Shown here piece by piece: positions 4,337 to 60,676 of a stretch of 60,676 nucleotides of DNA. Both the position numbers and the translations under genes were made by a program. Under the pieces are notes generated by a model, which was not told where the DNA came from, ran no database searches, and saw nothing but the letters and a program-made list of their open reading frames with translations. The DNA is from Mycobacteriales bacterium (lineage in GTDB: Bacteria; Actinomycetota; Actinomycetes; Mycobacteriales; DASULA01), in contig DASULA010000093.1 in assembly GCA_036278435.1 (NCBI GenBank), forward strand, positions 1 to 60,676, in the 5' to 3' direction. Positions within the stretch are counted from its first letter, which is position 1. Every line of letters starts with the position of its first letter.

Positions 4337-4373
4337 GCCAGCCAGCACACTCCTTGACCGGGAGGAACGGAAC

Positions 4374-5162: not shown

Positions 5163-5187
5163 ACCTGTCACCCGAGAAGGGACTCAG

Positions 5188-35559: not shown

Positions 35560-35633
35560 GGGGCTGTAGCGCAGTCCGGTAGCGCACCTCGTTCGCATCG
35601 AGGGGGTCAGGGGTTCGAATCCCCTCAGCTCCA
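35560..35633 (+). tRNA. tRNA-Ala (anticodon CGC)
   Basis: Hand-folded: acceptor GGGGCTG/CAGCTCC with the G3:U70 Ala identity pair, anticodon stem CCTCG/CGAGG, loop TTCGCAT, T-arm AGGGG-TTCGAAT-CCCCT. No encoded CCA. Confidence 0.9.
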
Positions 35634-36481: not shown

Positions 36482-36671
36482 CTCCCCGACCAGACGACCG
36501 GAAGCGAGCCAGAGCCAAACGTTTGACAGACCCCCGTCCCTCGCGATGCCATACACGCGCCCAGACTCGGCGTCACGACCGAGCCAGGCCGCCGGCACGC
36601 ACGGGCCCCGGGCCGAACGTTTGAGCCCAGTCAGTGTTGCGACTACCCTTCGGACCCGTGCAGTGCTCCAC

Positions 36672-37448: not shown

Positions 37449-37463
37449 GTGGCGCCCGATCCC

Positions 37464-39868: not shown

Positions 39869-39877
39869 CGCCAGCCC

Positions 39878-45752: not shown

Positions 45753-45876
45753 CGGGCACAGTGGCGTCGCCGCCTTGGTTCTGCGGCATCACTCCGTCGT
45801 CGAAGAGCTTCATGACGAAGTCTTGATCACTTAGCTCGACCGGGTCCGCCGTAGCCTCGGGGTCAACACTGCTCAT
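45715..45876 (-). CDS. Candidate RiPP precursor peptide (53 aa, or 55 aa from the ATG at 45882)
   Basis: Below the track length cutoff, so hand-translated: (MT)MSSVDPEATADPVELSDQDFVMKLFDDGVMPQNQGGDATVPDVAFFDVAVYDV. GGGAGG (45885-45890) lies 8 nt upstream of ATG 45876. Sits between the oxygenase pair and YcaO on the same strand. Confidence 0.6.
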   Translation of the reverse strand: MSSVDPEATADPVELSDQDFVMKLFDDGVMPQNQGGDATVPDVAFFDVAVYDV

Positions 45877-45911
45877 GGTCATCACCTCCCCTCAGTGGAA
45901 TCGTCGCCGCT

Positions 45912-46541
45912 CTAGTCGAGGGCGAAGTAACAGATGGTCGCGAGAATGCCCAGGTCTTCTGTCTCGAAAGGTGAACGCCAGTGCGGAATGTTGAACCCAT
46001 CGAAAGCCATGACGGTGCCTTGAGTAAGCGGCATCGTCGACGATGTCTGCGGAAAATCACCACGCTGGCTAAGCTCCTCTATGAGCGCGGAATTGGACAA
46101 CCCACGTAGTTCCGGAAGCCAGCCCATGATCCCAAGGTTGTCGGTAACCGCGATTGACAGGGTGACGGTGCATTTGAAGTCGTCGCGGTGGGCGGCCATG
46201 AAGTCGCCAGCCCGATAATATTTGTATCCCATTCGAGTTGGCACGATGATGTCGGATCGAAGGGCAGTACGGACAATGTCGATCAACGAGCGATCGTGTG
46301 CCATAGCCTTGAGCGCCGGACCGGCCCGATGTGCTCGACACCTTTGCGCGGAGGACAGCCCGCCCTCGCGGTGGGCCTTCCACCCGACCGCCGTGTTGAT
46401 TCGGTCGAAGGCCTCCGTCTCGAAGGATCTCGCTTCGTCCAACAGCGCCCGAGACCGCGACATGTCGAGCACACCTTGCACCTGAAAATGGCCATCACGC
46501 TGCCATGCCGCCGCAACGTCGGCGAGCGCCATGCTGGTCAT
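45912..46541 (-). CDS. Small HxD...H oxygenase-like protein (putative Fe(II)/2OG-dependent), paralog B
   Basis: GYKYYRAGDFMAAHRDDFKCTVTLSIAV ... FDGFNIPHWRSPF. Collinear with the upstream paralog. The start overlaps the upstream stop as ATGA. Confidence 0.55.
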   Translation of the reverse strand: MTSMALADVAAAWQRDGHFQVQGVLDMSRSRALLDEARSFETEAFDRINTAVGWKAHREGGLSSAQRCRAHRAGPALKAMAHDRSLIDIVRTALRSDIIVPTRMGYKYYRAGDFMAAHRDDFKCTVTLSIAVTDNLGIMGWLPELRGLSNSALIEELSQRGDFPQTSSTMPLTQGTVMAFDGFNIPHWRSPFETEDLGILATICYFALD

Positions 46542-47176
46542 AGGTCGAAGTAGCAGCAGTTGGCGAGCAGGCCAAGGTCCGACTCGAACGGCTTGCGCCA
46601 GTGCGGTACGTTATATCCGTCGAAAGCGACGATCGTCCGATGGGGCATGGAGATTGACGTCCCGACTTTTGCGGGAAAGATGCCATCTTCGGCGACCGTA
46701 GCAGCCAGTTTGTCGTTAGATGCGAGACGCAATTCGGGTGCCCAGTGCAGGCCGTCGAGATTCGGTGTCACGGCAAAGTTGAGAGTGACTGTGGCCTTTA
46801 CCGAATCGCGGTGCAGGCCGAGATAGTCGCCCGGACCATAGTAGTTGTATCCGCACCGAACGGGAATTAGCCGTGGCATGCCGACTGCTCGCCGGACGGC
46901 TTCGAGGAACTCAATCGACCGATGCAAGCGGCGAAACACTGTCCCACCCTGAACGCTGTGAAAGCGGGCAGGTGTAGCAAAGCTGCCGTCTCGATGCGCT
47001 GCGACCTGCTCGAAGCCGTTGCTGTTAGCCTCCTCGCGCAGCGCGAGGGCTTCCTTGAGCAGCGCCTCCCATGTCTCGTCTGAGAGTTCGATCTTGAGGT
47101 CGGCGGTAGCCGTCTCGTCCCACTGTTGCTTGGTCATGCCGCTCCACAACGCCGCCAACGTAACCAATTCGGACAT
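46538..47176 (-). CDS. Small HxD...H oxygenase-like protein (putative Fe(II)/2OG-dependent), paralog A
   Basis: GYNYYGPGDYLGLHRDSVKATVTLNFAV ... FDGYNVPHWRKPF. Start at ATG 47176 (or 47137, after GGAG). The 5' 119 codons of tracked ORF 46538..47533 look non-coding. Confidence 0.55.
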   Translation of the reverse strand: MSELVTLAALWSGMTKQQWDETATADLKIELSDETWEALLKEALALREEANSNGFEQVAAHRDGSFATPARFHSVQGGTVFRRLHRSIEFLEAVRRAVGMPRLIPVRCGYNYYGPGDYLGLHRDSVKATVTLNFAVTPNLDGLHWAPELRLASNDKLAATVAEDGIFPAKVGTSISMPHRTIVAFDGYNVPHWRKPFESDLGLLANCCYFDL

Positions 47177-47957
47177 CCGGATGATAGCCAAATATAGAAC
47201 GAGTTGGAAGCCCCGGGTCCTACTGGATATTGCGTCCCATCTGCCTTGGGTGTCGAAGTATCTGACCGGCCAGCTTGAGCCGCTGACCGCAGTACAGGGG
47301 CCTGCCAGGGCGATGCAGGGCCCCGGCGTGAGGTCTACATGAATGAGGTGTGGCGTGCCCGCTGTTGCATTGTCCCGCGTGGGTGCGCAGGTGGTCGCAT
47401 CCGGTCCCGAAGGCGAGAACCTGGCCGCCGGCGCGTGGCGGCGGCTGGAGTCGCTGCCCGATCCGCGTTCAGCGTCATGCCGACCCCACCGATCCAGACC
47501 GCCTGGCTTAGGGGCAACGGATCCAGGGCACATCTTCCTTCACCGGTCACTTCCTCGCCCACGGCGACAACATCGCCTGCTCATAGCAACGTCAGACCAG
47601 ACCGCCGGCGCACGGTCGTCGGTGGTCTGGGGCGGGCCGCCACGCACCACGGCGCACTCTCACAGCGATCGTGAGGTGCCTGCGTATCGCCTCCTGGCCC
47701 CCGCGGTGACCGGAGGAGGACTCCTGGAACCACGATCGACCGCCGTCCCGTGGCCGGATGCTGGAACGGGCGGCCCACCACCCGCGTAGGGTTCGCCACG
47801 GTCGCCGGGCTGTTGGCGTTCGCGCACCGGCACCGCCGGAGCCCGGACGGGTGAGAGCGGATGGCTCAGGGCAACCACATCGAACGTGGTGGTCGGTACG
47901 GTGCGGTGAGGCGGGCAGTCATGTGATCTACAAGTTCGAAGAGGGCGAGGGGATCAG

Positions 47958-50039: not shown

Positions 50040-51017
50040 TCACCTTCGGCGCGGTCGGTACGCCGGACCGGGGTTCGCCGTGCTGGTTCCCGGGCGTGGG
50101 CGCGGGCGCCGTGGGCGGTGTCCGGCCAGGACGGCATAGGCGTTGGCGACGTAGCGGGCGTTGCCGGCCGCCAGCGCGGCGAACGCGGAGGCCCGGCGGG
50201 TGATCAGGCCGCGCTGGAGTTCGGCTTCGGCGGCCAGCCAGGTACGGACCAGGCCGACCCGGTGCTTGCATCCCACGTCCGCGGTCGCGGTGGCGATCTC
50301 CGCACCCGACGGGGTCGGGGAGTTCAGCTTCCAGCGCGGATCGGAGATGGCGGCCTGCGGGTTCGCGTAGTGCATCCGATGGGTGGCCATGCAGGCCCGC
50401 CAGCGAACGGTGGCCGCGCGGACTCCCGGGTCGGTGACCGACTCGTCCAGCGAGCGGAAGTCCAGCGGGGTGAACCACCCCGGGTCGGTGAGCACGATCC
50501 CGGCGCGCAGCGCCCGGTCGGCCCGGGCCGTGCACCCGCCGGCGCCGGTGCCGCCGTCGAGGGCGTCCCGCTCCCGGCCCGGCAGCCGGCCGTACCACGC
50601 CTGGTAGGAGGCGGCCCGCCGGGTGGCACCGGGGTCGGGCGGGAAGTGGTAGCCGTACAGGGCCGCGACGTCTGGGTCGATGACCCCGTACCGGCGGCTG
50701 TTCGGCCGCACCGCGGGCGGGCCGCTGTCCGCGGTCGGGACGGTGACGTCGAACCCGTGGGACCGCATGCAGTCGTCGATCAGCAGGTCGGTGGCCCGGT
50801 CGATCTTCCGCCGGTCGGAGCGGCTGAACCGGTACGCGTCGAACGGCAGCACTACCTTGGCCCTCGTGGCCGGCGTCGGTCCGGCGGCACCGGTCCGGCC
50901 CGGCCGGGCGGGCGATCCGGCACCGACCGGGCTGACCGGGCTGACCGGGCCGGCTGGGCCGGGCAGCAGGGCGAGCAGGGCCGTGAGCGCGGCGGCCCCC
51001 CGGCTGGTCAGACGCAC
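50040..51017 (-). CDS. Secreted hypothetical protein
   Basis: GTG at 51017 gives VRLTSRGAAALTALLALLPG..., a signal-like N-terminus. No motif recognised. The 5' part of tracked ORF 50040..51218 overlaps the I36 gene. Confidence 0.5.
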   Translation of the reverse strand: MRLTSRGAAALTALLALLPGPAGPVSPVSPVGAGSPARPGRTGAAGPTPATRAKVVLPFDAYRFSRSDRRKIDRATDLLIDDCMRSHGFDVTVPTADSGPPAVRPNSRRYGVIDPDVAALYGYHFPPDPGATRRAASYQAWYGRLPGRERDALDGGTGAGGCTARADRALRAGIVLTDPGWFTPLDFRSLDESVTDPGVRAATVRWRACMATHRMHYANPQAAISDPRWKLNSPTPSGAEIATATADVGCKHRVGLVRTWLAAEAELQRGLITRRASAFAALAAGNARYVANAYAVLAGHRPRRPRPRPGTSTANPGPAYRPRRR

Positions 51018-51421
51018 ATCTGGATGGCGCTGGCCCGGTTGTCGCCGATCGAGTTGTTCTTCAGGAAGCCGTCGGACACGTTGTTGTGGAAGTCGGTGGA
51101 CGCACCCGTCCCGCCGACGTTCTGCCACAGCCGCACGGTGCACCCGCGCCGGTTCCTGATCGCGCTGGTCTCGTTGTCCATGTGGTCGTTGGTCTGGCTG
51201 CCGTGCGAGTCGCGCCACAGCACCTTGTTGAAGTCGTAGTTGCTCGACCTGAAGTCACGCCAGTGGTCGGTGTTCCCGTTGTTGAAGTCGTTGTTCTCGT
51301 ACAGGCAGGCCCAGCCCTTGGCGCACGTCCCGCGCGCTCCGGCCTCCGCCGATGTCGCCAGCATGGTCGTGCTGGCCAGCGCCAGCGCACACACACCACC
51401 GACCACGATTATCGATCGCAC
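51008..51421 (-). CDS. Peptidase inhibitor family I36 (SMPI-like, beta/gamma-crystallin fold) secreted protein
   Basis: Signal peptide followed by C.KGWACLYENNDFNNG...WRDF...SSN pattern with conserved Cys pairs. Confidence 0.75.
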   Translation of the reverse strand: MRSIIVVGGVCALALASTTMLATSAEAGARGTCAKGWACLYENNDFNNGNTDHWRDFRSSNYDFNKVLWRDSHGSQTNDHMDNETSAIRNRRGCTVRLWQNVGGTGASTDFHNNVSDGFLKNNSIGDNRASAIQMCV

Positions 51422-51551: not shown

Positions 51552-52724
51552 TCAGAACGGTGTGCGTGAGCTCGCCACGATGCCGCTGACCGCACGGGCC
51601 ATCGGAAACCGCCGCACCAGCTGGTCGCGGGCCGGGCAGAGCACCGCCCGACGGGGGAACATGACCCGGGCCAGCCACCGCGACTCGGACTGGTTGCGCT
51701 GTACCACCCGCCGGCACCGCTTCTCGTACAACTGAAGGGCGAGCGGCACGGTGGCCGCGTCGGCCCGGGACAGCTCGTCGGCCAGCCCGGCCGCGGCGCG
51801 CATGGCGGCCGACGCGCCGACCCCGGCCGTGGGCAGGAAGCCGGCCGCCGCGTCGCCGCACAGCGCCACCCGCCGGTCCACCCAGGCACGCGAGCGCACG
51901 TCACGCATCGACCAGAGGTGGACCGGCAGGGTGCCATCCGCGCCATCTGTGTCAGGTGTGCCATCCGCGTCGCTCAGGGCACCGGCAAGGCCCGCGATGC
52001 ACCCGGCGAACGGCTCGGTGAGCCGGCGCGGCGCCTCACCCAACCCGGCCCGGTCGGTCGGTACCAGCGCGCCGGCCGGCGCGCCCGCCACGCACATCAC
52101 CGCACCGGGCACCGGGTAGGCGCCGAAGAACCGGTCGTGCCCCCACCACTCCCGCGCCACCGGCCCGGAGAAGCGTTCCGGTCCGGCCCACCAGGTGAGC
52201 AGGACCCAGCCCGAGGCGAAGCCCGGCTGCGGGCCGAACACCAGGTCCCTGACGGTTGAGCCCATCCCGTCGCACCCGACGACCAGGTCGAAGCGTTCGT
52301 CGGCACCCCGGCCGAACGTGACGCGGACGCCGCGGCCGTCCTGTTCGAGCCCGGCCACGGTGTCGCCGCGGCGGATCTGCGCGCCCGCACAGGCCGCGCC
52401 GAGCAGGTCGAGGAGGCTACGCCGCCGCACCATGACCACCGGTCCGGTCCCACCGGTGAGCACTGACATGTCCACGGCGCGGAGTGGCCGCCCGGCCTGG
52501 TCGGCGATCTCGTACCGTTCGAGCACCAGGCCGCGCTCGCCGAACTCGCGGTAGCGGCCGAGGCCGTGCAGCACCCGGCTGCCCAGCGGGTACAGCCCGA
52601 TCGCGTACCCGTCCCGGGCGACGGTCGAGCGTTCCAGCACGGTCGGCCGCCGTCCCTGCCGGGCCAGCAGCGCGGCCAGCGTCAGCCCGGCCACGCCGGC
52701 CCCGACGACGAGTACCCGCACCAC
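51552..52724 (-). CDS. FAD-dependent monooxygenase (aromatic-ring hydroxylase-like)
   Basis: VLVVGAGVAGLTLAALLARQG dinucleotide fold, DLVVGCDG, GDAAH-type LCGDAAAGFLPTAG motif. Confidence 0.85.
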   Translation of the reverse strand: MVRVLVVGAGVAGLTLAALLARQGRRPTVLERSTVARDGYAIGLYPLGSRVLHGLGRYREFGERGLVLERYEIADQAGRPLRAVDMSVLTGGTGPVVMVRRRSLLDLLGAACAGAQIRRGDTVAGLEQDGRGVRVTFGRGADERFDLVVGCDGMGSTVRDLVFGPQPGFASGWVLLTWWAGPERFSGPVAREWWGHDRFFGAYPVPGAVMCVAGAPAGALVPTDRAGLGEAPRRLTEPFAGCIAGLAGALSDADGTPDTDGADGTLPVHLWSMRDVRSRAWVDRRVALCGDAAAGFLPTAGVGASAAMRAAAGLADELSRADAATVPLALQLYEKRCRRVVQRNQSESRWLARVMFPRRAVLCPARDQLVRRFPMARAVSGIVASSRTPF

Positions 52725-52856: not shown

Positions 52857-53498
52857 TCACGGTACGGGCGCGGTGCCGGCAGTGGCGTCGATCTGGGGGA
52901 GGTAGCCGGCCCGCAGGACGGCCAGGGTGGACGGGGGAGTGATCACCTCGGCGGCGCCGCGGACCGGCCTGGGGAGCCGGCCGGCGTAACCGCGGGTCGT
53001 CCACGGCACCAGGGCGTCGCTGAGTACCAGCGCCGGGCCGGTGTCGAGCCGCGCGAACGCCCCGGCGGGCAGGTCGGCCCAGTCGTAGGGGTGGAACCGG
53101 CGCCGGTGGGTGCCACGGACGATCCGTTCACCGTGCAGTTGGCGGTCGATCTCGGCCGCCCGCGGCGCGGTGTCCAGCCCGGCGGCGGCCGACCATGCCC
53201 GGCGGTAGGCGTCGTAGGCGTCCCGCCGGCACGATGCGCAGGGCCGGTGTCCGGCCGCCAGGGCCACCGCCTCGTCGTGGAAGAACAGCACGGTGTAGTG
53301 GCCGGGCGCCCACTGGGGCACCCGCCGGTCCCCCTGCCGCAGCACGCAGATGATCCACAGCGCGCTCGCGTGGAAGCGGACCACCTCGGTGTCCCGGTGC
53401 AGGATCCCCCGGTTCCCCATCCACGCGCCGCGCAGATCCACCGCGACTATCTCGCCGGTCGGGGTGACCCGGTTCCGCATTGGCCTGGCCGCGTTCAT
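52857..53498 (-). CDS. Conserved hypothetical protein with an Ada-like zinc-binding motif
   Basis: FFHDEAVALAAGHRPCASCRR matches the FF..EA..AGxRPCxxCR signature of the Ada N-terminal metal-binding domain. Start taken at MNAARP. Confidence 0.55.
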   Translation of the reverse strand: MNAARPMRNRVTPTGEIVAVDLRGAWMGNRGILHRDTEVVRFHASALWIICVLRQGDRRVPQWAPGHYTVLFFHDEAVALAAGHRPCASCRRDAYDAYRRAWSAAAGLDTAPRAAEIDRQLHGERIVRGTHRRRFHPYDWADLPAGAFARLDTGPALVLSDALVPWTTRGYAGRLPRPVRGAAEVITPPSTLAVLRAGYLPQIDATAGTAPVP

Positions 53499-53640
53499 CG
53501 CACTCCGATCCTGTCTGTGCCGGCCGGTCATCCGGCCGGAGTCCTGCGGACCGATGTTCCGCGCTGCCGCACGGACACCCGCCCCGCGGTGTCGGGGCGG
53601 TCAGCCGGCACCGGCCGAGCCCGAGAACACCGTGATCTAT

Positions 53641-53790
53641 TCGGCTGATGTAGGTCATTAACCGATTAGGGCGTAGATTATTAACCCAGTTGGACCCTCA
53701 TGTACTATTTAAATAAAGTATCTTTGGTGAAAAAAATACTGTTCCTTTAGTTGTCTTGCAAAGTACTTTTCGGATGGGCGCACTTCCGGC
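53641..53790. promoter_or_regulatory. Strongly AT-rich intergenic block with palindromic AAAGTA(T)CTTT motifs
   Basis: The line 53701-53760 has 16/60 G+C. AAAGTATCTTT at 53715-53725 and the perfect palindrome AAAGTACTTT at 53760-53769. Lies between divergent gene sets, upstream of the N-N cassette. Confidence 0.5.
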
Positions 53791-54293
53791 TGAACATCTG
53801 CGCGTGCATCTGCTCGTGCATCTAGTCGCATGCCGAGGTGCTCTCCGTCCGGCGGATGCCAGATCCGATGACCTGGCAGTTGCGGATCCGGGGAAACCCT
53901 TGATATCGCCACCAATGGTGCAATACTACGATCCATTCGAGATGACCGCCGGGTGGCCAGGGGCAACCCCTGCCGCTGGCGGGGGAATGTTGGCGAACAG
54001 GGTCAGGAGGCGGTCGAGCAGGAGTGCCGGCGCTGCGTGTGGCCCGTCCGGTAATCGTGTGCAGGTACCGGGGGTCACCCAAAGCGACCGATGCTACTGA
54101 GTGCGATCGTCGGGTCGAGTGTGGAATGGACTGGTCGGGGGACGCGCGCTCCCCGACGCTCGGCTCGGCGGCAGCACGCCGCCGTCACCGCCGGGTTGGC
54201 CCGGCTGGCACCCGACTGGACGCGCGCCGCCATATCCCACGCCGGTCAGAGCCCGCGGCAGCCGGGCAGTGTCGTGCACAGGAAGGGCGGACG

Positions 54294-54662
54294 ATGAAGG
54301 CGTTCAGCAGCGGGTCGGCCACGCTGGCACCGGAGTTCGGGATCCTCAGTGGACGGTGGAACCAGTACGCGGAGTCGGGCGACCTTCCCGAATTGCCGTT
54401 CAACGCGATGTGGTGTGTGGTACCGCCCGGTGGCCGGAGTAACGAGGATTGCCACCCGGAGCTGGAATTGTCCGTGGTAGTGGACGGCGCGGCCACGTTC
54501 GAGTCGCCGAGCGGGCGGGTGGACGCATCCACTGGCACGGCCGTTCTCATGGACTCGGCGGAACGGCACGTAATCCACAACAAGTCGACGGAATCACGGC
54601 TTGTCGTCCTCAGCATTTACTGGATGCCGGAGAACTGTGCGGAGGTCGGGGATGGGAGGTGA
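54294..54662 (+). CDS. Cupin-domain protein (N-N bond-forming cupin candidate)
   Basis: CHPELELSVVVDG...GTAVLMDSAERHVIHN gives two cupin motifs. Its end overlaps the MetRS-like start by 11 nt. Confidence 0.7.
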   Translation: MKAFSSGSATLAPEFGILSGRWNQYAESGDLPELPFNAMWCVVPPGGRSNEDCHPELELSVVVDGAATFESPSGRVDASTGTAVLMDSAERHVIHNKSTESRLVVLSIYWMPENCAEVGDGR

Positions 54663-56082
54663 GAATCCACGTCCCCTTACTCTTGTCACCGCCACCGCGC
54701 CTACTCCAAACGGACCTTTACATGTGGGCCATCTGAGCGGACCGTACATCGCCGCGGATATCGCCGCCCGGGCGGCCCGCACCCGCGGTGAGCGGGTACT
54801 CACTCTGAGCGGCGTTGACCCGAACCAGAATTACGTGCTGGCGAAGTCACGGCTGCTGGGCGAGCCCGCCGATCGGGTCGTCGGACACTACGAGGACCTG
54901 GTCCGCCGGGCGTTCGACCTGGCCCGGGTCGAGTACGACGTCTTCGTTGACCCGCGGGCCGACCAGCCGTACCGGTGGGCGGTGCGTGACCTGGTGGGCG
55001 AACTGGTCGAGACCAAGGCCGCGACCGTGCGGGAGGTGCGGCTGGCCCGGTGCGAACCGTGCGGCCGGACCCTGCACCACGCCTACGTCACCGGCACCTG
55101 CCCGGTGTGCGGCAGCGGATCCGGTGGCGGGACCTGCGAGGGCTGCGGAGCGTTCACCACCGGCACCAGCCTGGTGGACGCGCGCTGTGCGGACTGCGGA
55201 ACGGCGCCGACCGAGGCCACCGTGGAGATCCCGGTGCTGCGGCTGGAGGACTACCGCGACCACCTGTGCGAGGTCTGGTCGACCGCGAGCCTGCCGGCCC
55301 GGGTGCGCTGGTTGATCGGCCGGTACCTGGCCGACGGGTTGCCCGACGTGCCGTTGGCCTACCCGACCGACTGGGGCATTCCCGGGCCCGCCCTGGGCGG
55401 CCCGGACGGCGACCGGTGGGCCGACCAGCGCGTCGACGTGTGGGTGGAGATGGGGCTGGGCTACCTGTACGCGCTGGCCCGGCACCTTGACCCGAACGTG
55501 CGGGGGGCCGAGGCCGTCGTGCGCGCGTGGTCCGATGTGGACCGGGTGTGGCACTTCCTCGGCATCGACAACGCGTTCTACTTCGCGGTGCTGTTCCCCG
55601 CGCTGTACGCGGCGGCCGGGGTGCCCGGCGGCCGACTGGGCGGGTTGGTGGTCAACGAGTTCTACCGGCTGGACGGGCTGAAGTTCTCCACCAGCCGCGA
55701 CCACGCCATCTGGGCGCACGAGTTCTTCGGCGACGAGGACCCGGACATGGTTCGGCTGTACCTGTGCTGGGACCGGCCGGACCACTACGAGAGCGACTTC
55801 ACCCGGGAGGGCTACCTGGCCTTCCGGGACTGGGTCCGGGCCCTGCGCGACGGCGGGCCGGCCGGATCCGGACCGTCCGGGCTGCCGGCGGTGTCGGCCG
55901 CACAGAACGTGCTGCGCGCCAGCGAGTCGCTGCGGCTCGCCGCGTTCGACCCGGCCGGGGCGGTGCGCTGCCTGCTTCCTGCGCTGGCCGCGGCCCCGGA
56001 CCAGGCCGCGGGCGTACTGGCGCTGCTCACCGGGCAGGCCGGAGGGAGGGAATCCGGCGGCGTGGCCGGGGCCCGGTCATGA
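54652..56082 (+). CDS. Methionyl-tRNA synthetase-like class I ligase paralog
   Basis: PTPNGPLHVGHLSGPYI (HIGH-type), Zn-knuckle CPVCGSGSGGGTCEGCG...CADCG, KMSKS position reads KFSTS. Only about 476 aa, with a short C-terminal region. Confidence 0.85.
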   Translation: MGGENPRPLTLVTATAPTPNGPLHVGHLSGPYIAADIAARAARTRGERVLTLSGVDPNQNYVLAKSRLLGEPADRVVGHYEDLVRRAFDLARVEYDVFVDPRADQPYRWAVRDLVGELVETKAATVREVRLARCEPCGRTLHHAYVTGTCPVCGSGSGGGTCEGCGAFTTGTSLVDARCADCGTAPTEATVEIPVLRLEDYRDHLCEVWSTASLPARVRWLIGRYLADGLPDVPLAYPTDWGIPGPALGGPDGDRWADQRVDVWVEMGLGYLYALARHLDPNVRGAEAVVRAWSDVDRVWHFLGIDNAFYFAVLFPALYAAAGVPGGRLGGLVVNEFYRLDGLKFSTSRDHAIWAHEFFGDEDPDMVRLYLCWDRPDHYESDFTREGYLAFRDWVRALRDGGPAGSGPSGLPAVSAAQNVLRASESLRLAAFDPAGAVRCLLPALAAAPDQAAGVLALLTGQAGGRESGGVAGARS

Positions 56083-57260
56083 CCGCGGTCATCGCGCCGC
56101 CGCGGATCGGCGTCGTCGGGGCCGGGATCGCCGGCAGCCTGCTGGCCTGGAGGCTGGCCACCGCCGGCCCGGCGGGGCGGGTCGAACTGCTCGGCGCGCC
56201 GGCTCCGGGCGGGGGGGACGCCACCGGGGTGTCCGGTGGCCTCGTCCGCGGCTTCGAGACCGACCCGACCGCCCGCCGGCTGGCCACCGCGGGCCTGGCC
56301 GAACTGCTGGCCAGCCCCACCCTGCTGGCTTGGTCGGGGTTCCGCCAGATCGGATCGGTGTACGTGATCGACCCGGCCGACGCGCCCGGGCTGGCCGCGG
56401 CTCGGGCACTGACCCGCGGGGGCACCGGTCCGCATGCCAGCGCGGCCCCGCCGGGCGCCGTGCTGACCGATGCGGCCGTACTGACCGATGCCGCCGGGCT
56501 GGCCGACCGGCACGGTTGGCGCGGCCTGCCCGCCGACTGCCTGGGCGTGGTGGAGCCACCGGCTGGACACATCTCGCCGGACGCGCTGCGCGCCGGCGTG
56601 CTGGCCGACCTGGCCGACCGGGGCGTGCCGGTGCGGCCGGAACCAGTGGTCACGATCCGGCCCGAGCCCGGCGGCGGGGCCACCGTGCTGACCGGCGCGG
56701 GCACCCACCGGTACGACGCGGTCGTGGTCGCCGCCGGCCGGTGGACCCCCCGCTTGCTGCGCGACAGCGGCCTGCCCACCGGAAACCTGCGCACCAAGCT
56801 GGTCCAGTACGGGGTGTACCAGGCCGGCGGCCCGCCACCGCCGGCATTCGTCGACGACACCACCGGGCTGTACGGGCGCGGGATGGCCGACGGGCAGGTG
56901 CTGCTCGGGGTTCCGGTGCACCACTTCGACATCGACCCGGACCACCCAGAACCGGACCACGAGGCGCAGACCCGCGCGGCTGAACTGGCCGACGTCCGAC
57001 TGCCGCTGCTGCGGCTGGGCCGGTTGAGCCGGGTGGTGGCCGGCGCGGACTGCTACGCCGAGCCGGCCCGGCTGCGACTGGCCGAACTTCCCCATCCACG
57101 GATCTACACGTTCACCGGCGGCAGCGGCGGGTCGGCCAAGTTGGCGCTGGCCGCCAGCGCCGCGGCGGCCGGTGAACTGGCCGAACTCCTCGGCATCGGC
57201 GACGCGCCCGCGCGGCGCGCCGGGATGGGACCTGAATCGGCGACAGCCGGACCGCCCTGA
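56079..57260 (+). CDS. FAD-dependent oxidoreductase (glycine/D-amino-acid oxidase family)
   Basis: RIGVVGAGIAGSLLAWRLA dinucleotide-binding fold. ATGA overlap with the upstream stop. Confidence 0.8.
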   Translation: MTAVIAPPRIGVVGAGIAGSLLAWRLATAGPAGRVELLGAPAPGGGDATGVSGGLVRGFETDPTARRLATAGLAELLASPTLLAWSGFRQIGSVYVIDPADAPGLAAARALTRGGTGPHASAAPPGAVLTDAAVLTDAAGLADRHGWRGLPADCLGVVEPPAGHISPDALRAGVLADLADRGVPVRPEPVVTIRPEPGGGATVLTGAGTHRYDAVVVAAGRWTPRLLRDSGLPTGNLRTKLVQYGVYQAGGPPPPAFVDDTTGLYGRGMADGQVLLGVPVHHFDIDPDHPEPDHEAQTRAAELADVRLPLLRLGRLSRVVAGADCYAEPARLRLAELPHPRIYTFTGGSGGSAKLALAASAAAAGELAELLGIGDAPARRAGMGPESATAGPP

Positions 57261-57387
57261 CCCGCGGCCAGGTGAACCGGCAGGTGCGGCTCGCCGGTTC
57301 CCTTCCCGGCCGGGAGGTCTGCACCGGCCTCCCGCCAGCACCTGTTCGAACACCAGACATCACGAGGCATTCGGCGAGGAGACCCAG

Positions 57388-58695
57388 ATGGCGACCAACG
57401 GACCCGCACCCGGGACCGTCGATGTGCCCACTTTCCACACGATCGGTGTAGGCGCGGGGCCAGCGAACCTGAGCCTTGCGGCGCTGTTCGGCGCGGCCGG
57501 CCCCCAGCGGGTCGGGTTGTTCGAGCGGCAGCCGTTCGCGTCCTGGCACCGCGGGCTGCTCTACTCCGGTGTGCGGATGCAGACTTCCTGGATCAAGGAC
57601 CTGGTCTCGCTGGTCGATCCGACCCATCCGATGTCCTTCCTCAGCTACCTGGTGTCCAGCGGCCGGGCGTTCGCCTTCCTCAACGCCCAGCACGACTCCA
57701 TCCCGCGGCTGGAGTTCGTCCGTTACCTGGCCTGGGCCAGTGACCAGATCGGCGACGTGCACTACGGCACCGCCATCGACGAGATCAACTTCGATGACGG
57801 GTTCGAGGTGCGCAGCCAGGGCCGCACCGTGGCCAGGTCGGACAACCTGGTGCTCGGGCTGGGCACCGAGCCGTTCATCCCACCTGGACTGTCCGGTGTG
57901 GCCGAAGACCGGCGGATCGTCGCCGACGACCTGATCGACTGGCTGGAGGGCACCGAGACCGAGCCGGCCGGGACTGACCGGCACGAGCCCATCGCGGTGG
58001 TCGGCGGTGGGCAGACCGGGGCCGAGTGCGTGATGGAGTTGCTCAATCACGGCTACGACGACGTGCGGTGGTTCGGCCGGCGGCCCTGGTTCGCCCCGCT
58101 GGACGACTCGCCGTCGGCGAACGAGTTCTACCGGCCGGCCTACGCCCAGTTCTTCCAGCAGTTACCCCGGCAGGTGCGCCGCGACCTGGTGGACAGCCAG
58201 GTGCTGACCAGCGACGGGGTGTCCGCGGCGACGCTGCGCACGCTCTACCAACACAACTACGAGCAACTGCTGCGCACCGGGCGGTTCCCGCTGACCATGC
58301 TGCCCGGCCGAGACGTGACCGGGATGGAACCGGACGCCGGCGGCGGGGTGCGGCTGGCCTGCCAGACCGCGACCGGCACCGAGACGCACGAGGTGCGGCG
58401 GATCGTGTGCGCCACCGGCCGCCGCCCGTCGGCGTTGCCGTTCGGGCCGGAACTGGCCGAGCGGGTGGAACTGGACGAGACCGGTGACCTGATCGTCGAG
58501 GACGACTTCTCGGTCCGCTGGAAGGGCAGCAACGGGCACAGGATCTACGCGCAGAACCGGGCCCGCTACACCCACGGCCTGACCGACGCGAATCTGAGCC
58601 TGCTCCCGATGCGCAGCGCGGTGATCATCAACTCGCTGTTCGAGCGTGAGATCTTCGACATCCGCGACGAGAACCTCAGCACCGCATGGGGTTGA
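57388..58695 (+). CDS. Lysine N6-hydroxylase / ornithine N5-oxygenase family flavin monooxygenase (IucD/SidA-like)
   Basis: HTIGVGAGPANLSLAAL...FSWHRGLL...MQTSWIKDLVS..DPT.P.SFL.YL and VVGGGQTGAE, collinear with IucD as I recall it. ATG follows GAGGAG. Confidence 0.85.
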   Translation: MATNGPAPGTVDVPTFHTIGVGAGPANLSLAALFGAAGPQRVGLFERQPFASWHRGLLYSGVRMQTSWIKDLVSLVDPTHPMSFLSYLVSSGRAFAFLNAQHDSIPRLEFVRYLAWASDQIGDVHYGTAIDEINFDDGFEVRSQGRTVARSDNLVLGLGTEPFIPPGLSGVAEDRRIVADDLIDWLEGTETEPAGTDRHEPIAVVGGGQTGAECVMELLNHGYDDVRWFGRRPWFAPLDDSPSANEFYRPAYAQFFQQLPRQVRRDLVDSQVLTSDGVSAATLRTLYQHNYEQLLRTGRFPLTMLPGRDVTGMEPDAGGGVRLACQTATGTETHEVRRIVCATGRRPSALPFGPELAERVELDETGDLIVEDDFSVRWKGSNGHRIYAQNRARYTHGLTDANLSLLPMRSAVIINSLFEREIFDIRDENLSTAWG

Positions 58696-58724
58696 CCGGT
58701 GAACGGGGACAGGAGGCAGGCGGG

Positions 58725-59075
58725 ATGATCGACTACGACGGCAGGGTGTTCCGGTCGTCGGCCACCGAGACGGCCGATGCCGGCGGGGTGGGACCGGAGG
58801 GCCACTACCACCAGCGGGGCAACCAGGTCTGGGCCGAGTTCGTCGGCGGGAAGGTGCTGCGCGGCAATCTGGTGGGCACCTGCGACAGCGACGGCACCCT
58901 GCACCTGGCCTACTGCCAGCTCCTGGCCGGTGGAGCGGTCGTGGCCGGCTCGTGCACCAGCACCCCGCGGGTCCTCGATGACGGCCGGGTGCGGCTGGCC
59001 GAACACTGGCGCCGGTTCGACGACGCCGGTTCGACCGGTGTGTCCTACATCGAGGAGGTGTCCCGGGCGCGATGA
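58725..59075 (+). CDS. Small hypothetical protein (116 aa)
   Basis: ATG after GGAGGCAGGCGGG, with good codon bias. No motif I can name with confidence. Confidence 0.55.
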   Translation: MIDYDGRVFRSSATETADAGGVGPEGHYHQRGNQVWAEFVGGKVLRGNLVGTCDSDGTLHLAYCQLLAGGAVVAGSCTSTPRVLDDGRVRLAEHWRRFDDAGSTGVSYIEEVSRAR

Positions 59076-59713
59076 CCGACCGACTGTCTCCAACCCCGCG
59101 GACCAGGGTGCGCCGGCAGTCGGCGCTGGCGTCGGACCGCCGCGCCGACCTGTACTCCATCCTGGACGCCTCGACCGTGTGCCACCTGGGCGTGCTGCTC
59201 GACGGCGCGCCCGCGGTGTTCCCCACCGGGTACGGCCGCCACGGCGACCTGCTGTACCTGCACGGGTCGGTGGCCGCCCGCAGCCTGGCCGCGGCGCTGG
59301 CGCATCCGGTGTGCGTGTGCGTGACCCATCTGGATGGTGTGGTCTACGCCCGCTCGCTCTACAACCACACGGTGAACTACCGCAGCGCCATGGTCTACGG
59401 CCAGGCCCGGTTGGTCACCGACAGCACCGAGCTGATGCACGGGCTGCGGGTGCTCACCGAACACCTGGCGCCCGGGCAGTGGGACTACGCCCGGCGGCCC
59501 AGCCGTCGGGAGCTGGCCGCCACCTCGTTGCTGGCCGTGCCGCTGGACGAGGCCTCGGTGAAGATCCGCTCGGGTCCGCCCCAGGATGACGAACCCGATT
59601 ACGACCTGCCCATCTGGGCTGGAGTGGTACCCATCTCCATGCTGCGGGGCGACCCGCTGGCATGCCCACGCCTGGCACCGGGAACTCCGGTGCCCGACCA
59701 CATCGGACACTGA
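59072..59713 (+). CDS. Pyridoxamine 5'-phosphate oxidase-family (FMN-binding split-barrel) protein
   Basis: Y.ILD....CHLG......P.V.PT.Y.R.GD.LYLHGS pattern. ATGA overlap with the upstream stop. Confidence 0.8.
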   Translation: MTDRLSPTPRTRVRRQSALASDRRADLYSILDASTVCHLGVLLDGAPAVFPTGYGRHGDLLYLHGSVAARSLAAALAHPVCVCVTHLDGVVYARSLYNHTVNYRSAMVYGQARLVTDSTELMHGLRVLTEHLAPGQWDYARRPSRRELAATSLLAVPLDEASVKIRSGPPQDDEPDYDLPIWAGVVPISMLRGDPLACPRLAPGTPVPDHIGH

Positions 59714-59727
59714 CAAGGAGGCGACGC

Positions 59728-60066
59728 ATGCAGCTCATCGAGGGTGCCGGCGTCTACACACCGCCCAAGGACGAGCCGAACCACTGGATCGAGCACCTGC
59801 GTGGTTCCGACCTGAGCGTCGGCACCTACTCGATCGCGGCTGGCGGCCTGGACGACCAGCGGCCGCACTTGGAGGACGAGATCTACGTGGTGCAGACCGG
59901 TCGGGCCACCATCGTGACCGACACCGGCCGGGCCCAGGTGCAGCCCGGTTCGGTCGTGTTCGTGCCGGCCAACGAGAAACACCAGTACGTGGACATCATC
60001 GAGGACCTCACCCTGGTCGTGATCGTCGCTCCGCCGTACAAAACCCGCGAGCAGGCTGCCACCTGA
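59728..60066 (+). CDS. Cupin-domain protein
   Basis: HLEDEIYVVQTGRATI...GSVVFVPANEKHQY two-motif cupin. ATG follows AAGGAGG. Confidence 0.75.
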   Translation: MQLIEGAGVYTPPKDEPNHWIEHLRGSDLSVGTYSIAAGGLDDQRPHLEDEIYVVQTGRATIVTDTGRAQVQPGSVVFVPANEKHQYVDIIEDLTLVVIVAPPYKTREQAAT

Positions 60067-60267
60067 GCAGCGCCGGCGGGCACCGGTACGGTGCCCGCCG
60101 GCCGCTGGCCGCCGCCACCCGCGCCCGGATCGCGGATTGGCGGACCGGCGGGTCGTGATTCGCCTTCGACCCGGTAGGGCCCGGCGGTACGTCCAAATAT
60201 TCGGACAGACGATGCCGACCAGCCCAGAAATACGTATTAATCCCCAAAAAACTGACCTGGAGTCGTC

Positions 60268-60676
60268 GTGACCGAATTCGATGCCGTCGCTGACGGCGAA
60301 CCGCTGGTGGAGCCAGTCGCGATCGTGGGCATGGCCTGCCGACTGCCCGGCGCCGCGGACGTGGACACCTACTGGCGCAACCTGGTCGGCGGCGTCGAGT
60401 CGGTGCGGCGGTACACCCGTGCCGAGCAGGAGGCACGCGGCGTGCCGGCACACCTGCTGGACGCCCCGAACTGGGTGTCGGTGTCGTCCACTCTGGACGA
60501 TCCGGAGTACTTCGACGCGGCCTTCTTCGGGATGACCCGGCGGGAGGCCGACGTCCGGGACCCGCAGCAGCGGATCTTCCTGGAACTGGCCTACACCGCC
60601 CTACAGGACTCCGGGTACGACCCGGCCCGGTTCGACGGCGAGATCGGCGTGTACGGCGGCCTGGGCGCAGACGAGT
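60268..60676 (+). CDS. Type I polyketide synthase, N-terminal ketosynthase domain (truncated by the window end)
   Basis: Hand translation: VTEFDAVADGEPLVEPVAIVGMACRLPGAADVDTYWRNLVGGVESV...DPEYFDAAFFGMTRREADVRDPQQRIFLELAYTALQDSGYDP. Open to the last base, so absent from the track. GTG follows GGAG. Confidence 0.85.
   Translation, partial: MTEFDAVADGEPLVEPVAIVGMACRLPGAADVDTYWRNLVGGVESVRRYTRAEQEARGVPAHLLDAPNWVSVSSTLDDPEYFDAAFFGMTRREADVRDPQQRIFLELAYTALQDSGYDPARFDGEIGVYGGLGADE

What the first reader, a model, noticed from the sequence alone, without database searches (positions are those of the whole stretch)
54294..60676. Hydrazine (N-N bond) forming enzyme set adjacent to a type I PKS: edge of a second biosynthetic cluster
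Four consecutive plus-strand genes encode a cupin, a MetRS-like ligase (HVGH; KMSKS replaced by KFSTS; Cys knuckles retained), a DAO-family FAD oxidase and an IucD-like lysine N6-hydroxylase. The first three carry 11-nt and ATGA overlaps; the hydroxylase follows after a ~130-nt gap.

Established knowledge: this set (Spb38/39/40 in the s56-p1 pathway, Tri26-28 in triacsin biosynthesis) works in three steps.
- Lysine is N6-hydroxylated.
- It is coupled to an amino acid through the MetRS-like and cupin domains to form an N-N bond.
- The FAD oxidase releases hydrazinoacetate or a related hydrazino acid.

Downstream follow a small unknown protein, a PNPOx-family flavoprotein, a second cupin and a KS domain that runs off the window.

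Inference: this is the start of a BGC for an N-N-containing polyketide (hydrazide, diazo, triazene or pyrazole type). The enzyme logic is known, but the product of this particular locus is not deducible from the window.
Basis: partly seen in the sequence, partly recalled or inferred. Interest (0 to 1): 0.75.

Follow-up and report, generated by a model that had tools for sequence, protein, structure and literature searches.

The report
Split hydrazine-synthetase cassette beside a PKS
This is a gene cassette for making a nitrogen-nitrogen (hydrazine) building block by a known enzymatic route; it sits next to the start of a polyketide synthase and carries three accessory proteins whose roles nobody has worked out.

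Summary
Window 54294-60066 holds seven co-directional, tightly packed genes:
- Zn-type cupin
- stand-alone MetRS-like ligase
- DAO-type FAD oxidase
- Lys/Orn-type N-hydroxylase
- avidin-like beta-barrel (116 aa)
- a second cupin

After a strong hairpin, a KS-first type I PKS gene runs off the contig.

The ligase is not a housekeeping MetRS. Its best solved relative is PyrN-C, the hydrazine-synthetase ligase domain. Its 11-residue substrate pocket, TAPTDQWMGNF, is identical to that of a tested stand-alone enzyme that accepts Ala and Gly. Cupin 1 keeps the four Zn ligands of RHS1.

The small protein and second cupin are not stray downstream genes. They belong to a conserved cassette found in many soil actinobacterial contigs. 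That cassette sits next to ATP-grasp ligases or NRPS genes, next to a type II PKS (albofungin-like), or next to no assembly enzyme at all.

Only this window has the flavocytochrome and a type I PKS. The PKS link is plausible but unproven, and the contig ends, so the product cannot be deduced.

Verdict: a new member of a known kind, of moderate interest.

The parts
53899..53931 (+). Promoter-like block: TTGATA, 16 nt, then TG-extended AATACT. It lies about 360 nt upstream of the first gene.
   Evidence: It is the only sigma-70-like site in 53400-60676. The block is 31 of 33 nt identical in the closest relative cassette (L005, L006, L032-L035), while the flanking non-coding DNA has diverged.
54294..54662 (+). 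Cupin 1: the Zn-dependent N-N-forming (rearrangement) component of the split hydrazine synthetase.
   Evidence: Cupin_2, E 1.4e-9. PDB hits are 5J7M (E 5e-19), 4RD7, 4MV2 and 5UQP = RHS1. D52, H54, E58 and H92 match the RHS1 ligands D63, H65, E69 and H103 with the same spacing (sequence compared with PMC8664883).
54652..56082 (+). Stand-alone MetRS-like O-aminoacyl-hydroxylamine synthetase. GenBank protein HEX5493815.1.
   Evidence: tRNA-synt_1g is its only Pfam domain. All MetRS equivalog models score far below their cut-offs (211 vs 553 bits). The best PDB hit is PyrN-C (9L8V, 204 bits, 38.5% identity) against 154 bits for P. abyssi MetRS. HVGH and KFSTS are present. The pocket TAPTDQWMGNF equals that of the Ala/Gly enzyme HEX4062544.
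56079..57260 (+). DAO-family FAD oxidase. Its predicted role, like Spb39 and albofungin OrfF, is to cut the lysine C6-N bond and release the hydrazino acid.
   Evidence: DAO, E 2.3e-27. The nearest solved proteins are sarcosine oxidase and NikD, only weakly. A homologue (44-62% identity) occupies the same position in L001, L003, L005-8 and L029.
57388..58695 (+). Flavin N-hydroxylase of the Lys/Orn/diamine family. Predicted reaction: L-lysine to N6-hydroxylysine.
   Evidence: Lys_Orn_oxgnase, E 2.1e-74. PDB hits are the cadaverine hydroxylase SsDesB (6XBB, E 2e-47), then MbtG, then FbsI. It is 51-82% identical in the related cassettes.
58725..59075 (+). Avidin-like eight-stranded beta-barrel, 116 aa, function unknown. 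It is a conserved cassette member.
   Evidence: It is 62-90% identical to proteins precomputed as PF26421 Avidin_like in related cassettes, more conserved than the enzymes. The AlphaFold2 model has pLDDT 95.9; the best Foldseek matches are avidins with TM 0.5-0.65. AGGAGG lies 9 nt before ATG 58725.
59072..59713 (+). Anf3/MSMEG_4975-type split-barrel flavocytochrome (predicted FAD + haem b). It is unique to this copy of the cassette.
   Evidence: Pyridox_ox_2, E 3.2e-40. PDB hits are 6RK0 = Anf3 (E 3e-47) and 4YBN (E 3e-36). The haem ligand His70 (here H64), Arg21 (here R15), Tyr103 and Lys170 are conserved. It overlaps the preceding gene by ATGA. No other locus has it.
59728..60066 (+). Cupin 2, 112 aa, function unknown. 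It is a conserved cassette member.
   Evidence: Cupin_2, E 3e-7. It is 77-88% identical in L003, L005-8, L012, L013 and L016-19 but only 24% identical to cupin 1. Arg replaces the first metal ligand; His, Glu and His are retained.
60068..60107 (+). GC-rich hairpin directly after the cupin 2 stop codon: a terminator-like or mRNA-end structure with no U tract.
   Evidence: -41.1 kcal/mol, z-score -5.1, and 0 of 200 shuffles fold as well.
60268..60676 (+). Start of a type I PKS. The KS domain lies at the very N-terminus with no loading module, and the gene is cut by the contig end before the catalytic Cys.
   Evidence: ketoacyl-synt N-terminal domain, E 1e-27. NCBIfam type I PKS models also match. 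GGAG lies 6 nt before GTG 60268. NCBI calls the same 136-aa partial protein.

Best explanation
Window 54294-60066 is a portable seven-gene cassette. It makes a hydrazine (N-N) building block by the cupin/MetRS-like 'hydrazine synthetase' route, in the split form.

Proposed steps:
1. The flavin N-hydroxylase converts L-lysine to N6-hydroxylysine. (Inferred from the family and from characterised cassettes.)
2. The MetRS-like protein adenylates a small amino acid, alanine or glycine. It transfers that amino acid to the N6-OH group, giving an O-aminoacyl-hydroxylamine. (Inferred from motifs and from a pocket identical to a tested enzyme.)
3. Cupin 1, with its Zn site D52/H54/E58/H92, rearranges this ester to the N-N-linked N6-(carboxyalkylamino)lysine.
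4. The DAO-type FAD oxidase cuts the lysine C6-N bond. This releases 2-hydrazinopropionate or hydrazinoacetate.
5. The avidin-like barrel, cupin 2 and, in this locus only, an Anf3-like FAD/haem protein act on or hold this reactive product. Their chemistry is unknown. My best guess is further oxidation to a hydrazone, and possibly release of free hydrazine as in the albofungin pathway.
6. The type I PKS that starts 201 nt downstream probably uses the product as starter unit or as off-loading nucleophile. This step rests on gene position alone.
For: Domains and gene order are as described.

The ligase is a hydrazine-synthetase ligase, not a MetRS:
- It scores 204 bits against PyrN-C (9L8V/9VQ4) but 154 bits or less against true MetRS.
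- All NCBIfam MetRS models fall far below their cut-offs.
- It has KFSTS where PyrN has KFSTG.
- The PyrN residues that bind N6-OH-Lys, Asn143, Asp420 and Asn421, are conserved as N20, D306 and N307.

The pocket TAPTDQWMGNF is identical to HEX4062544, which made Lys-Ala and Lys-Gly conjugates in E. coli.
- Among the 120 closest homologues, 31 carry PPPTDQWMGNY.
- That code matches the code of the alanine-using albofungin enzyme Afn8.

Cupin 1 keeps the RHS1 Zn ligands.

Albofungin BGCs have the same order: cupin, tRNA synthetase, FAD oxidoreductase (PMC9469721). A Streptomyces type II PKS locus (L029) has cupin, MetRS, DAO, a BBE oxidase and an avidin-like protein.

The cassette recurs in more than 15 contigs. 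In most, an assembly enzyme lies at or near the downstream end:
- ATP-grasp ligase in L003, L007 and L009-11
- NRPS in L013

Precedents for a hydrazine synthetase feeding a type I PKS or other ligases are the dob cluster and fuscazine.
Against: - No activity was measured.
- The hydroxylase substrate is not fixed by sequence. Its best solved relative is a cadaverine hydroxylase.
- The authors of the pocket table warn that native substrates may differ from those seen in E. coli.
- The closest relative of the cassette (71% ligase identity, seen on at least 24 contigs) has no PKS, NRPS or ATP-grasp gene within 5-8 kb. It has only an orphan MbtH gene.
- A hairpin of -41 kcal/mol and a 201-nt gap separate cupin 2 from the PKS gene.
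- None of the dob-type hand-over enzymes is visible in the part of the locus we have: no GNAT, adenylase, carrier protein or C45 peptidase.
- The PKS is cut after 136 residues.
Confidence: 0.75

Rival explanations
1. The cassette is a self-contained pathway for a small, exported N-N metabolite: a hydrazino acid, a hydrazone or diazo acid, or hydrazine itself. On this reading the PKS gene is only a neighbour and belongs to a separate cluster.
For: - The closest relatives carry the six conserved genes plus MbtH between a MerR/flavodoxin/MFS group and unrelated SWIM/SNF2 genes, with no assembly line.
- L016-L019 have a histidine kinase directly after cupin 2.
- In the window a hairpin and a 201-nt gap precede the PKS gene, which has its own ribosome-binding site.
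Against: - In most other contexts an ATP-grasp, NRPS or type II PKS gene lies next to the cassette.
- Here the PKS occupies the slot directly after cupin 2 that ATP-grasp or NRPS genes fill in several relatives, and it is on the same strand.
- Hydrazine synthetases characterised so far feed larger scaffolds.
Confidence: 0.35
2. The cassette is a generator of free hydrazine (N2H4), as proposed for albofungin. The hydrazino acid is oxidised a second time, by the Anf3-like flavocytochrome and/or cupin 2, with the avidin-like barrel holding the intermediate. This releases N2H4, which then attacks a PKS-bound thioester to give an acyl hydrazide or N-amino lactam.
For: - The ligase family includes the Afn8 pocket code.
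- An albofungin-like type II PKS locus also carries the avidin-like protein plus an extra oxidase of the BBE type.
- N2H4 production that depends on afn8 is reported.
- The window has an extra redox protein in the equivalent place.
Against: - No asparagine-synthetase-like hydrazine transferase (the Afn14 type) is visible.
- The role of the accessory proteins is entirely inferred.
- Anf3 itself is an O2-reducing oxidase, not a hydrazine oxidase.
Confidence: 0.2
3. This is a hydroxamate-siderophore hydroxylase next to a duplicated housekeeping MetRS, and makes no N-N chemistry.
For: The hydroxylase belongs to the same Pfam family as the siderophore enzymes IucD, PvdA, MbtG and DesB.
Against: - The ligase scores 211 bits against a 553-bit MetRS cut-off.
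- It has no anticodon-domain Pfam hit.
- It has KFSTS instead of KMSKS.
- It scores higher against PyrN-C than against any MetRS.
- It is translationally coupled to a Zn cupin with the RHS1 ligands.
- No NRPS or IucA/IucC-type siderophore synthetase was seen in the window genes scanned.
Confidence: 0.02

Closest known systems
Albofungin hydrazine genes: Afn9 cupin, Afn8 MetRS-like, OrfF-type FAD oxidoreductase, Afn18 lysine N6-hydroxylase (J. Am. Chem. Soc. 2024, 146, 13399; PMC9469721)
   Same: - The cupin and ligase are separate proteins, in the same order: cupin, ligase, FAD oxidase.
- They belong to the same ligase family; the Afn8 code PPDWMGY occurs in 31 of the 120 closest homologues.
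- The cassette is associated with a polyketide.
- An albofungin-like locus (L029) also holds the avidin-like protein, at 65% identity.
   Different: - The window's pocket is TAPTDQWMGNF, not the Afn8 code.
- The L029 ligase is only 51% identical.
- The partner is a type I, not a type II, PKS.
- The window adds cupin 2 and an Anf3-like flavocytochrome.
- No Afn14-like hydrazine transferase is seen.
HEX4062545/HEX4062544, a stand-alone cupin + MetRS-like pair from a Streptosporangiaceae MAG (bioRxiv 10.1101/2025.08.22.671884, Supplementary Tables 4 and 5)
   Same: All 11 pocket residues are identical. It is also the split architecture and also comes from a soil actinobacterial MAG. It was shown to couple N6-OH-Lys with Ala and Gly in E. 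coli.
   Different: No genomic context was reported for it, and its native substrate is not established.
Spb38/39/40 (s56-p1) and Tri26/27/28 (triacsin)
   Same: The same three-step logic: lysine N6-hydroxylase, cupin/MetRS-like N-N formation, FAD oxidase release.
   Different: - There the cupin and ligase are fused.
- The Tri28 code is TPDWMGH (glycine only).
- Downstream chemistry uses succinylation, a carrier protein and a hydrazone route that is not seen here.
RHS1 (PDB 5UQP) with its stand-alone MetRS-like partner in Rhodococcus jostii RHA1, and PyrN (PDB 9L8V)
   Same: - The Zn-ligand set of the cupin is the same.
- The ligase fold and motifs (HxGH, KFST[G/S], Cys knuckles) are shared.
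- The ligase is 38.5% identical to PyrN-C.
   Different: Those enzymes use glutamate (code SFVALRR). They are paired with a saccharopine-dehydrogenase-type cleavage enzyme, not a DAO oxidase.
The dob cluster of Nocardia (4-diazo-3-oxobutanoate; PMC12154687)
   Same: A hydrazine synthetase set next to a type I PKS in a member of the Mycobacteriales. It is the precedent for a PKS extending a hydrazine-derived unit.
   Different: - dob has a fused DobE plus a GNAT, an adenylase, a carrier protein, an FAD oxidase, a C45 peptidase and a diiron oxidase.
- Its PKS starts with a TE domain (TE-KS-AT-ACP).
- None of these features is seen here.
Fuscazine FuzD-G four-gene hydrazine cassette with ATP-grasp ligases (PMC13149037)
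   Same: Split cupin and MetRS-like genes plus an FAD oxidoreductase and an N-monooxygenase, used as a movable cassette. Several relatives of the window's cassette are likewise flanked by ATP-grasp ligases.
   Different: The gene order differs, FuzG accepts arginine or hydroxyarginine, and no avidin-like protein or second cupin was described.
Anf3 of Azotobacter vinelandii (PDB 6RK0) and MSMEG_4975 (PDB 4YBN)
   Same: For gene 59072-59713: strong sequence match, with the haem-ligand His, the propionate-binding Arg and Lys, and the distal Tyr all conserved.
   Different: Anf3 is linked to Fe-only nitrogenase and reduces O2. Here the gene is embedded in a hydrazine cassette. Tyr22 is Gln, and the Phe105/Asn106 loop is His/Thr.

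Membership tests
Cupin/MetRS-like hydrazine synthetase system | Class I aaRS catalytic core with HxGH and the KFST[G/S] variant of KMSKS | tested here: met
   HVGH at 24-27 and KFSTS at 344-348. KFSTS is present in 119 of 120 family members. PyrN has HLGH and KFSTG.
Cupin/MetRS-like hydrazine synthetase system | Scores higher against a characterised hydrazine-synthetase ligase than against true MetRS | tested here: met
   PyrN-C 9L8V scores 203.8 bits, E 3.8e-59; the best MetRS (1RQG) scores 153.8 and E. coli MetRS about 75. The MetRS equivalog models score 211 bits or less against cut-offs of 336-633. No tree was built with Spb40, Tri28 or Afn8 because those sequences are not held here.
Cupin/MetRS-like hydrazine synthetase system | Residues that bind the aminoacyl-adenylate and N6-hydroxylysine in PyrN (T141, N143, Q182, D420, N421) | tested here: met
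   They align with T18, N20, Q59, D306 and N307. Only one of E284/E286 is retained, as E163.
Cupin/MetRS-like hydrazine synthetase system | Partner cupin with the Zn ligands D-x-H-x3-E...H, including the catalytic Glu | tested here: met
   D52, H54, E58 and H92 match RHS1 D63, H65, E69 and H103 with identical spacing. The cupin and ligase genes overlap by 11 nt.
Cupin/MetRS-like hydrazine synthetase system | Co-located flavin N-hydroxylase that supplies the hydroxylamine | tested here: met
   Lys_Orn_oxgnase, 251 bits. It holds the same position in the related cassettes. The substrate (lysine) is inferred, not tested.
Cupin/MetRS-like hydrazine synthetase system | ATP-dependent formation of an N-N-linked amino acid conjugate | not testable with these tools
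   This needs expression and LC-MS. The only indirect support is that the pocket is identical to the tested enzyme HEX4062544.
Housekeeping methionyl-tRNA synthetase | Passes the MetRS equivalog thresholds and has KMSKS and an anticodon-binding domain | tested here: not met
   All MetRS models score below their cut-offs. KFSTS replaces KMSKS. Pfam reports only the catalytic domain, residues 11-386 of 476.
Type I polyketide synthase | KS domain with the catalytic Cys-His-His triad, followed by AT and ACP domains on one polypeptide | tested here: inconclusive
   Only the first 136 residues are present. They match the N-terminal half of ketoacyl-synt (E 1e-27) and type I PKS NCBIfam models. The fragment ends before the catalytic Cys, and the contig ends at 60676.
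Anf3/MSMEG_4975 flavocytochromes | Split-barrel fold with a proximal His haem ligand and Arg and Lys binding the haem propionates | tested here: met
   6RK0 E 3e-47. His70, Arg21, Lys170 and Tyr103 are all conserved in the alignment. Cofactor binding itself is untested.
Avidin/streptavidin biotin-binding proteins | Eight-stranded barrel with detectable sequence homology to avidins | tested here: inconclusive
   The fold is avidin-like (TM 0.5-0.65), but sequence identity is 8-19% and the Foldseek E-value is never better than 1.5e-3. A sequence profile finds no PDB relative. The biotin-binding residues were not compared. The resemblance is of fold only.

The most novel reading that the evidence does not exclude
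The avidin-like barrel is the best-conserved protein of the cassette, yet I found no mention of it in the hydrazine-synthetase papers I could read. Together with cupin 2 and, here, an Anf3-type FAD/haem protein, it may be the missing machinery that takes a hydrazino acid onward. That could mean oxidation to a hydrazone or diazo species, or release of free hydrazine. If so, this is a self-contained 'hydrazine donor' module that can plug into ATP-grasp, NRPS, type II PKS or type I PKS lines. It would also give the first haem-flavin enzyme acting on an N-N intermediate.
Probability: 0.2. Interest if true: 0.7.

Novelty: new member of a known kind. Interest (0 to 1): 0.4.

Why it matters
Hydrazine synthetases are the largest known family of enzymes that form N-N bonds, and they are sought as biocatalysts and as genome-mining markers. 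This locus adds a split Ala/Gly-type cassette next to a KS-first type I PKS in an uncultured member of the Mycobacteriales.

More usefully, comparing it with relatives shows that a small avidin-like barrel and a second cupin travel with this clade of synthetases across very different assembly lines. That makes them concrete candidates for the still-unassigned steps after the hydrazino acid, including the route to free hydrazine proposed for albofungin. Homologues of the avidin-like protein exist in cultured Streptomyces and Kitasatospora strains, so the idea can be tested.

Tried and rejected
- **Sequence beyond 60676.** The window is the whole 60,676-bp contig of a Mycobacteriales MAG. An exact look-up of the PNPOx-like protein found nothing. 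The species-representative genome scan gave only four loci at 62% identity or less.
- **Finding the rest of the PKS through KS homologues.** The search returned only short fragments. The two with context were a truncated KS remnant after an NRPS-type carrier domain (L030) and a contig-end fragment (L031).
- **Looking for a related cassette with a PKS or PNPOx gene.** tblastn over 28 loci found none.
- **The avidin-like protein.** The local Pfam copy gave no hit. A profile search of PDB sequences gave only noise.
- **Papers and records not held.** The paper that defines the eight-residue code (ChemBioChem 2024) is not held. I first mis-assigned pocket positions 1 and 2 to T18/P19. I corrected them to T15/A16 using the PyrN alignment and Supplementary Table 5. 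HEX4062544 could not be located among the homologues by accession. The Kitasatospora homologue P0165 was not on record.
- **The 5' leader.** Rfam found nothing credible; the only hit was a microRNA model at 25 bits against a 100-bit threshold. I considered a conserved upstream peptide (MVQYY...) and rejected it, because the later conserved DNA patches fall in different reading frames in the two lineages.
- **Context of distant cupin 2 homologues.** They lie next to uvrC, rapZ, gap and pgk, which gives no functional clue.

Full report
**1. What is in the sequence**

The window is a complete 60,676-bp contig of a MAG labelled Mycobacteriales bacterium, so nothing lies beyond 60676. From 54294 to the end there are eight + strand genes with GC3 of 0.80-0.92:

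| Gene | Coordinates | Evidence (unless stated) |
|---|---|---|
| Cupin 1 | 54294-54662 | Cupin_2 |
| MetRS-like ligase | 54652-56082 | tRNA-synt_1g only; HEX5493815.1 |
| DAO-family FAD oxidase | 56079-57260 | DAO |
| N-hydroxylase | 57388-58695 | Lys_Orn_oxgnase |
| 116-aa small protein | 58725-59075 | no Pfam hit in the local copy |
| Split-barrel protein | 59072-59713 | Pyridox_ox_2 |
| Cupin 2 | 59728-60066 | Cupin_2 |
| KS N-terminal domain | GTG 60268 to end | ketoacyl-synt |

There is also a second ATGA overlap, between the small protein and the split-barrel gene. HVGH, KFSTS and four CxxC pairs are present in the ligase.

**2. The ligase is a hydrazine-synthetase component, not a MetRS**

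- Its best solved relatives are 9L8V and 9VQ4 (204 bits). Archaeal MetRS scores 154 bits and E. coli MetRS about 75.
- 9L8V and 9VQ4 are PyrN-C, the O-aminoacyl-hydroxylamine synthetase domain of the pyrazomycin hydrazine synthetase (bioRxiv 10.1101/2025.08.22.671884). Identity over the aligned 374 columns is 38.5%.
- Every NCBIfam MetRS model scores far below its cut-off. Pfam reports no anticodon-binding domain.
- PyrN has KFSTG where MetRS has KMSKS; the window has KFSTS. The PyrN residues that contact the adenylate and N6-hydroxylysine (T141, N143, Q182, D420, N421) align with T18, N20, Q59, D306 and N307.

**3. Substrate prediction**

I used the PyrN alignment and the authors' 11-position pocket table. 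The window's pocket is T15 A16 P17 T18 D56 Q59 W264 M267 G270 N307 F311, that is TAPTDQWMGNF.

This is identical at all 11 positions to HEX4062544. That protein is a stand-alone ligase from a Streptosporangiaceae MAG. With its own cupin and a lysine N6-hydroxylase, it produced Lys-Ala and Lys-Gly conjugates in E. coli.

Among the 120 closest homologues:
- 67 share this code.
- 14 have the F-to-Y variant.
- 31 have PPPTDQWMGNY, which matches the seven-letter code PPDWMGY of Afn8, the alanine-using albofungin enzyme.
- For comparison, glycine-specific Tri28 is TPDWMGH.

I therefore predict alanine and/or glycine. The authors' own caveat applies: native substrates may differ from those seen in E. 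coli.

**4. The other core enzymes**

- **Cupin 1.** It hits 5J7M, 4RD7, 4MV2 and 5UQP. 5UQP is RHS1, the stand-alone Zn cupin shown to form the N-N bond (PMC8664883). Its ligands D63, H65, E69 and H103 correspond to D52, H54, E58 and H92 with identical spacing.
- **N-hydroxylase.** It belongs to the IucD/PvdA/DesB family, but its best solved relative is a broad-specificity cadaverine hydroxylase. Lysine is therefore inferred from context, not from sequence.
- **DAO protein.** It is only distantly related to sarcosine oxidase and NikD. It occupies the position of the FAD oxidoreductase in albofungin clusters, whose order is cupin, tRNA synthetase, FAD oxidoreductase (PMC9469721).

**5. The cassette is larger than four genes, and it moves**

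The order cupin 1, ligase, (DAO), hydroxylase, avidin-like protein, (cupin 2) recurs in L001, L003, L005-L013, L016-L019 and L032-L035.

The small protein is 62-90% identical across these loci and cupin 2 is 77-88% identical. The ligase is only 56-71% identical. These are conserved members, not stray genes.

What lies next to the cassette varies:

| Neighbouring genes | Loci |
|---|---|
| ATP-grasp ligases | L003, L007, L009-L011 |
| NRPS on both sides | L013 |
| Type II PKS with a BBE-type oxidase, albofungin-like | L029, from a Streptomyces sviceus assembly |
| No assembly enzyme at all | L016-L019 |
| No assembly enzyme, only an orphan MbtH gene | L005, L006, L032-L035 (the closest relative, on at least 24 contigs) |

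Only the window has a type I PKS and the split-barrel gene.

**6. The accessory proteins**

- **Small protein.** It models with high confidence (pLDDT 95.9) as an eight-stranded barrel. Its nearest solved folds are avidins, at TM 0.5-0.65, with negligible sequence identity. That suggests a small-ligand-binding barrel. Every database source that names it calls it hypothetical. A full-text search found no paper linking avidin-like proteins to hydrazine synthesis.
- **The "PNPOx" protein.** It matches Anf3 (6RK0, E 3e-47) and MSMEG_4975 (4YBN), which bind FAD and haem b. The haem ligand His70, the propionate-binding Arg21 and Lys170, and Tyr103 are all conserved. It is probably a flavocytochrome. 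Its substrate here is unknown.
- **Cupin 2.** It keeps His, Glu and His but has Arg at the first ligand position. More distant homologues lie in a housekeeping neighbourhood next to uvrC, which gives no clue to function.

**7. Relation to the PKS**

A hairpin of -41 kcal/mol (z = -5.1) starts two bases after the cupin 2 stop codon. The PKS gene follows 201 nt later with its own GGAG.

The KS lies at the extreme N-terminus, so the enzyme must receive its starter in trans or act iteratively. The fragment ends before the catalytic cysteine. The homologue search could not tell me what type of PKS it is.

There is precedent for a hydrazine-derived unit being extended by a type I PKS: the dob cluster of Nocardia (PMC12154687). 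That cluster needs a set of hand-over enzymes that are not visible here. I put the functional link at about one in two.

**8. Comparison and verdict**

The architecture, however, is the split one of RHS1, Afn8/Afn9, FuzD-G and HEX4062544/5. All defining features that sequence can test are met; activity cannot be tested here.

This is a new member of a known kind. More than 1,200 such synthetases are estimated to exist, and a protein with the same pocket has already been assayed.

What is new, and worth a bench test, is the conserved avidin-like barrel and second cupin, and in this locus the haem-flavin protein. These may carry out the unassigned steps after the hydrazino acid.

Interest is 0.4. 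The most novel reading has a probability of about 0.2 and would deserve about 0.7 if true.

Noticed in passing
window 36546-47533, with a tRNA gene at 35560-35633 (+): A block of lower G+C (0.60-0.65 against 0.70-0.75 elsewhere) lies directly after a tRNA gene. It encodes YcaO (44478-45752, -), TfuA (43138-44481, -), a methyltransferase, a JmjC protein, an MFS exporter and a luciferase-like oxygenase. I did not look for a precursor peptide.
   Followed up: partly
window 53899-53931, and the leader up to 54293: A promoter-like block (TTGATA, 16 nt, TG-extended AATACT) is 31 of 33 nt identical in the closest relative cassette. It lies 363-466 nt upstream of cupin 1, which implies a long 5' leader. 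Short further patches (CGGGGGAATG, GGAGGCGGTCGA) are conserved in different reading frames, so they are conserved at the nucleotide level, not as a peptide. No Rfam family matches. With only two lineages, RNA structure could not be tested.
   Followed up: partly
window 53650-53780 and 53795-53818: An AT-rich stretch sits in the divergent intergenic region, followed by a 12-nt tandem pair (CATCTGCGCGTG / CATCTGCTCGTG). It may be an operator, or it may be chance.
   Followed up: no
window 60068-60107: A very stable GC-rich hairpin (-41.1 kcal/mol, z = -5.1) lies directly after the cupin 2 stop codon, without a U tract.
   Followed up: yes
window 59072-59713: The 'PNPOx' gene is an Anf3/MSMEG_4975-type protein with the haem-ligand His conserved. 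Anf3 is otherwise known from Fe-only nitrogenase clusters, so finding a homologue inside a hydrazine cassette is an odd coincidence of nitrogen chemistry.
   Followed up: partly
L021 991-1293, L025 7468-7791, L026 4714-5037: Cupin 2 homologues at 53-57% identity sit immediately upstream of uvrC, rapZ, a CofD-like gene, gap and pgk. This is a conserved housekeeping neighbourhood of actinobacteria, so the cassette's cupin 2 looks like a recruited copy of a widespread protein of unknown function.
   Followed up: partly
L005 8106-8303; L032 10955-11152: In the closest relative, the cassette is followed by an orphan MbtH-like gene, with no NRPS within 8 kb downstream or 5.6 kb upstream. MbtH proteins normally partner NRPS adenylation domains.
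   Followed up: no
L029 (Streptomyces sviceus assembly GCA_042881745.1) 869-5667: A cultured-strain locus carries cupin, MetRS-like, DAO, a BBE/FAD_binding_4 oxidase and an avidin-like protein next to type II PKS genes. It is a tractable system for testing the avidin-like protein's role.
   Followed up: partly
L030 1-754: The KS relative with the most context is a 142-aa truncated KS open reading frame that follows an NRPS-type carrier domain and is itself followed by respiratory-chain genes. It looks like a decayed hybrid NRPS-PKS remnant.
   Followed up: no
window 51008-51421 (-) and 51552-52724 (-): Upstream of the cassette on the opposite strand lie a small Cys-rich, apparently secreted protein with no Pfam hit and a FAD_binding_3 aromatic-ring-type monooxygenase. 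Whether they belong to the cluster is unknown.
   Followed up: no
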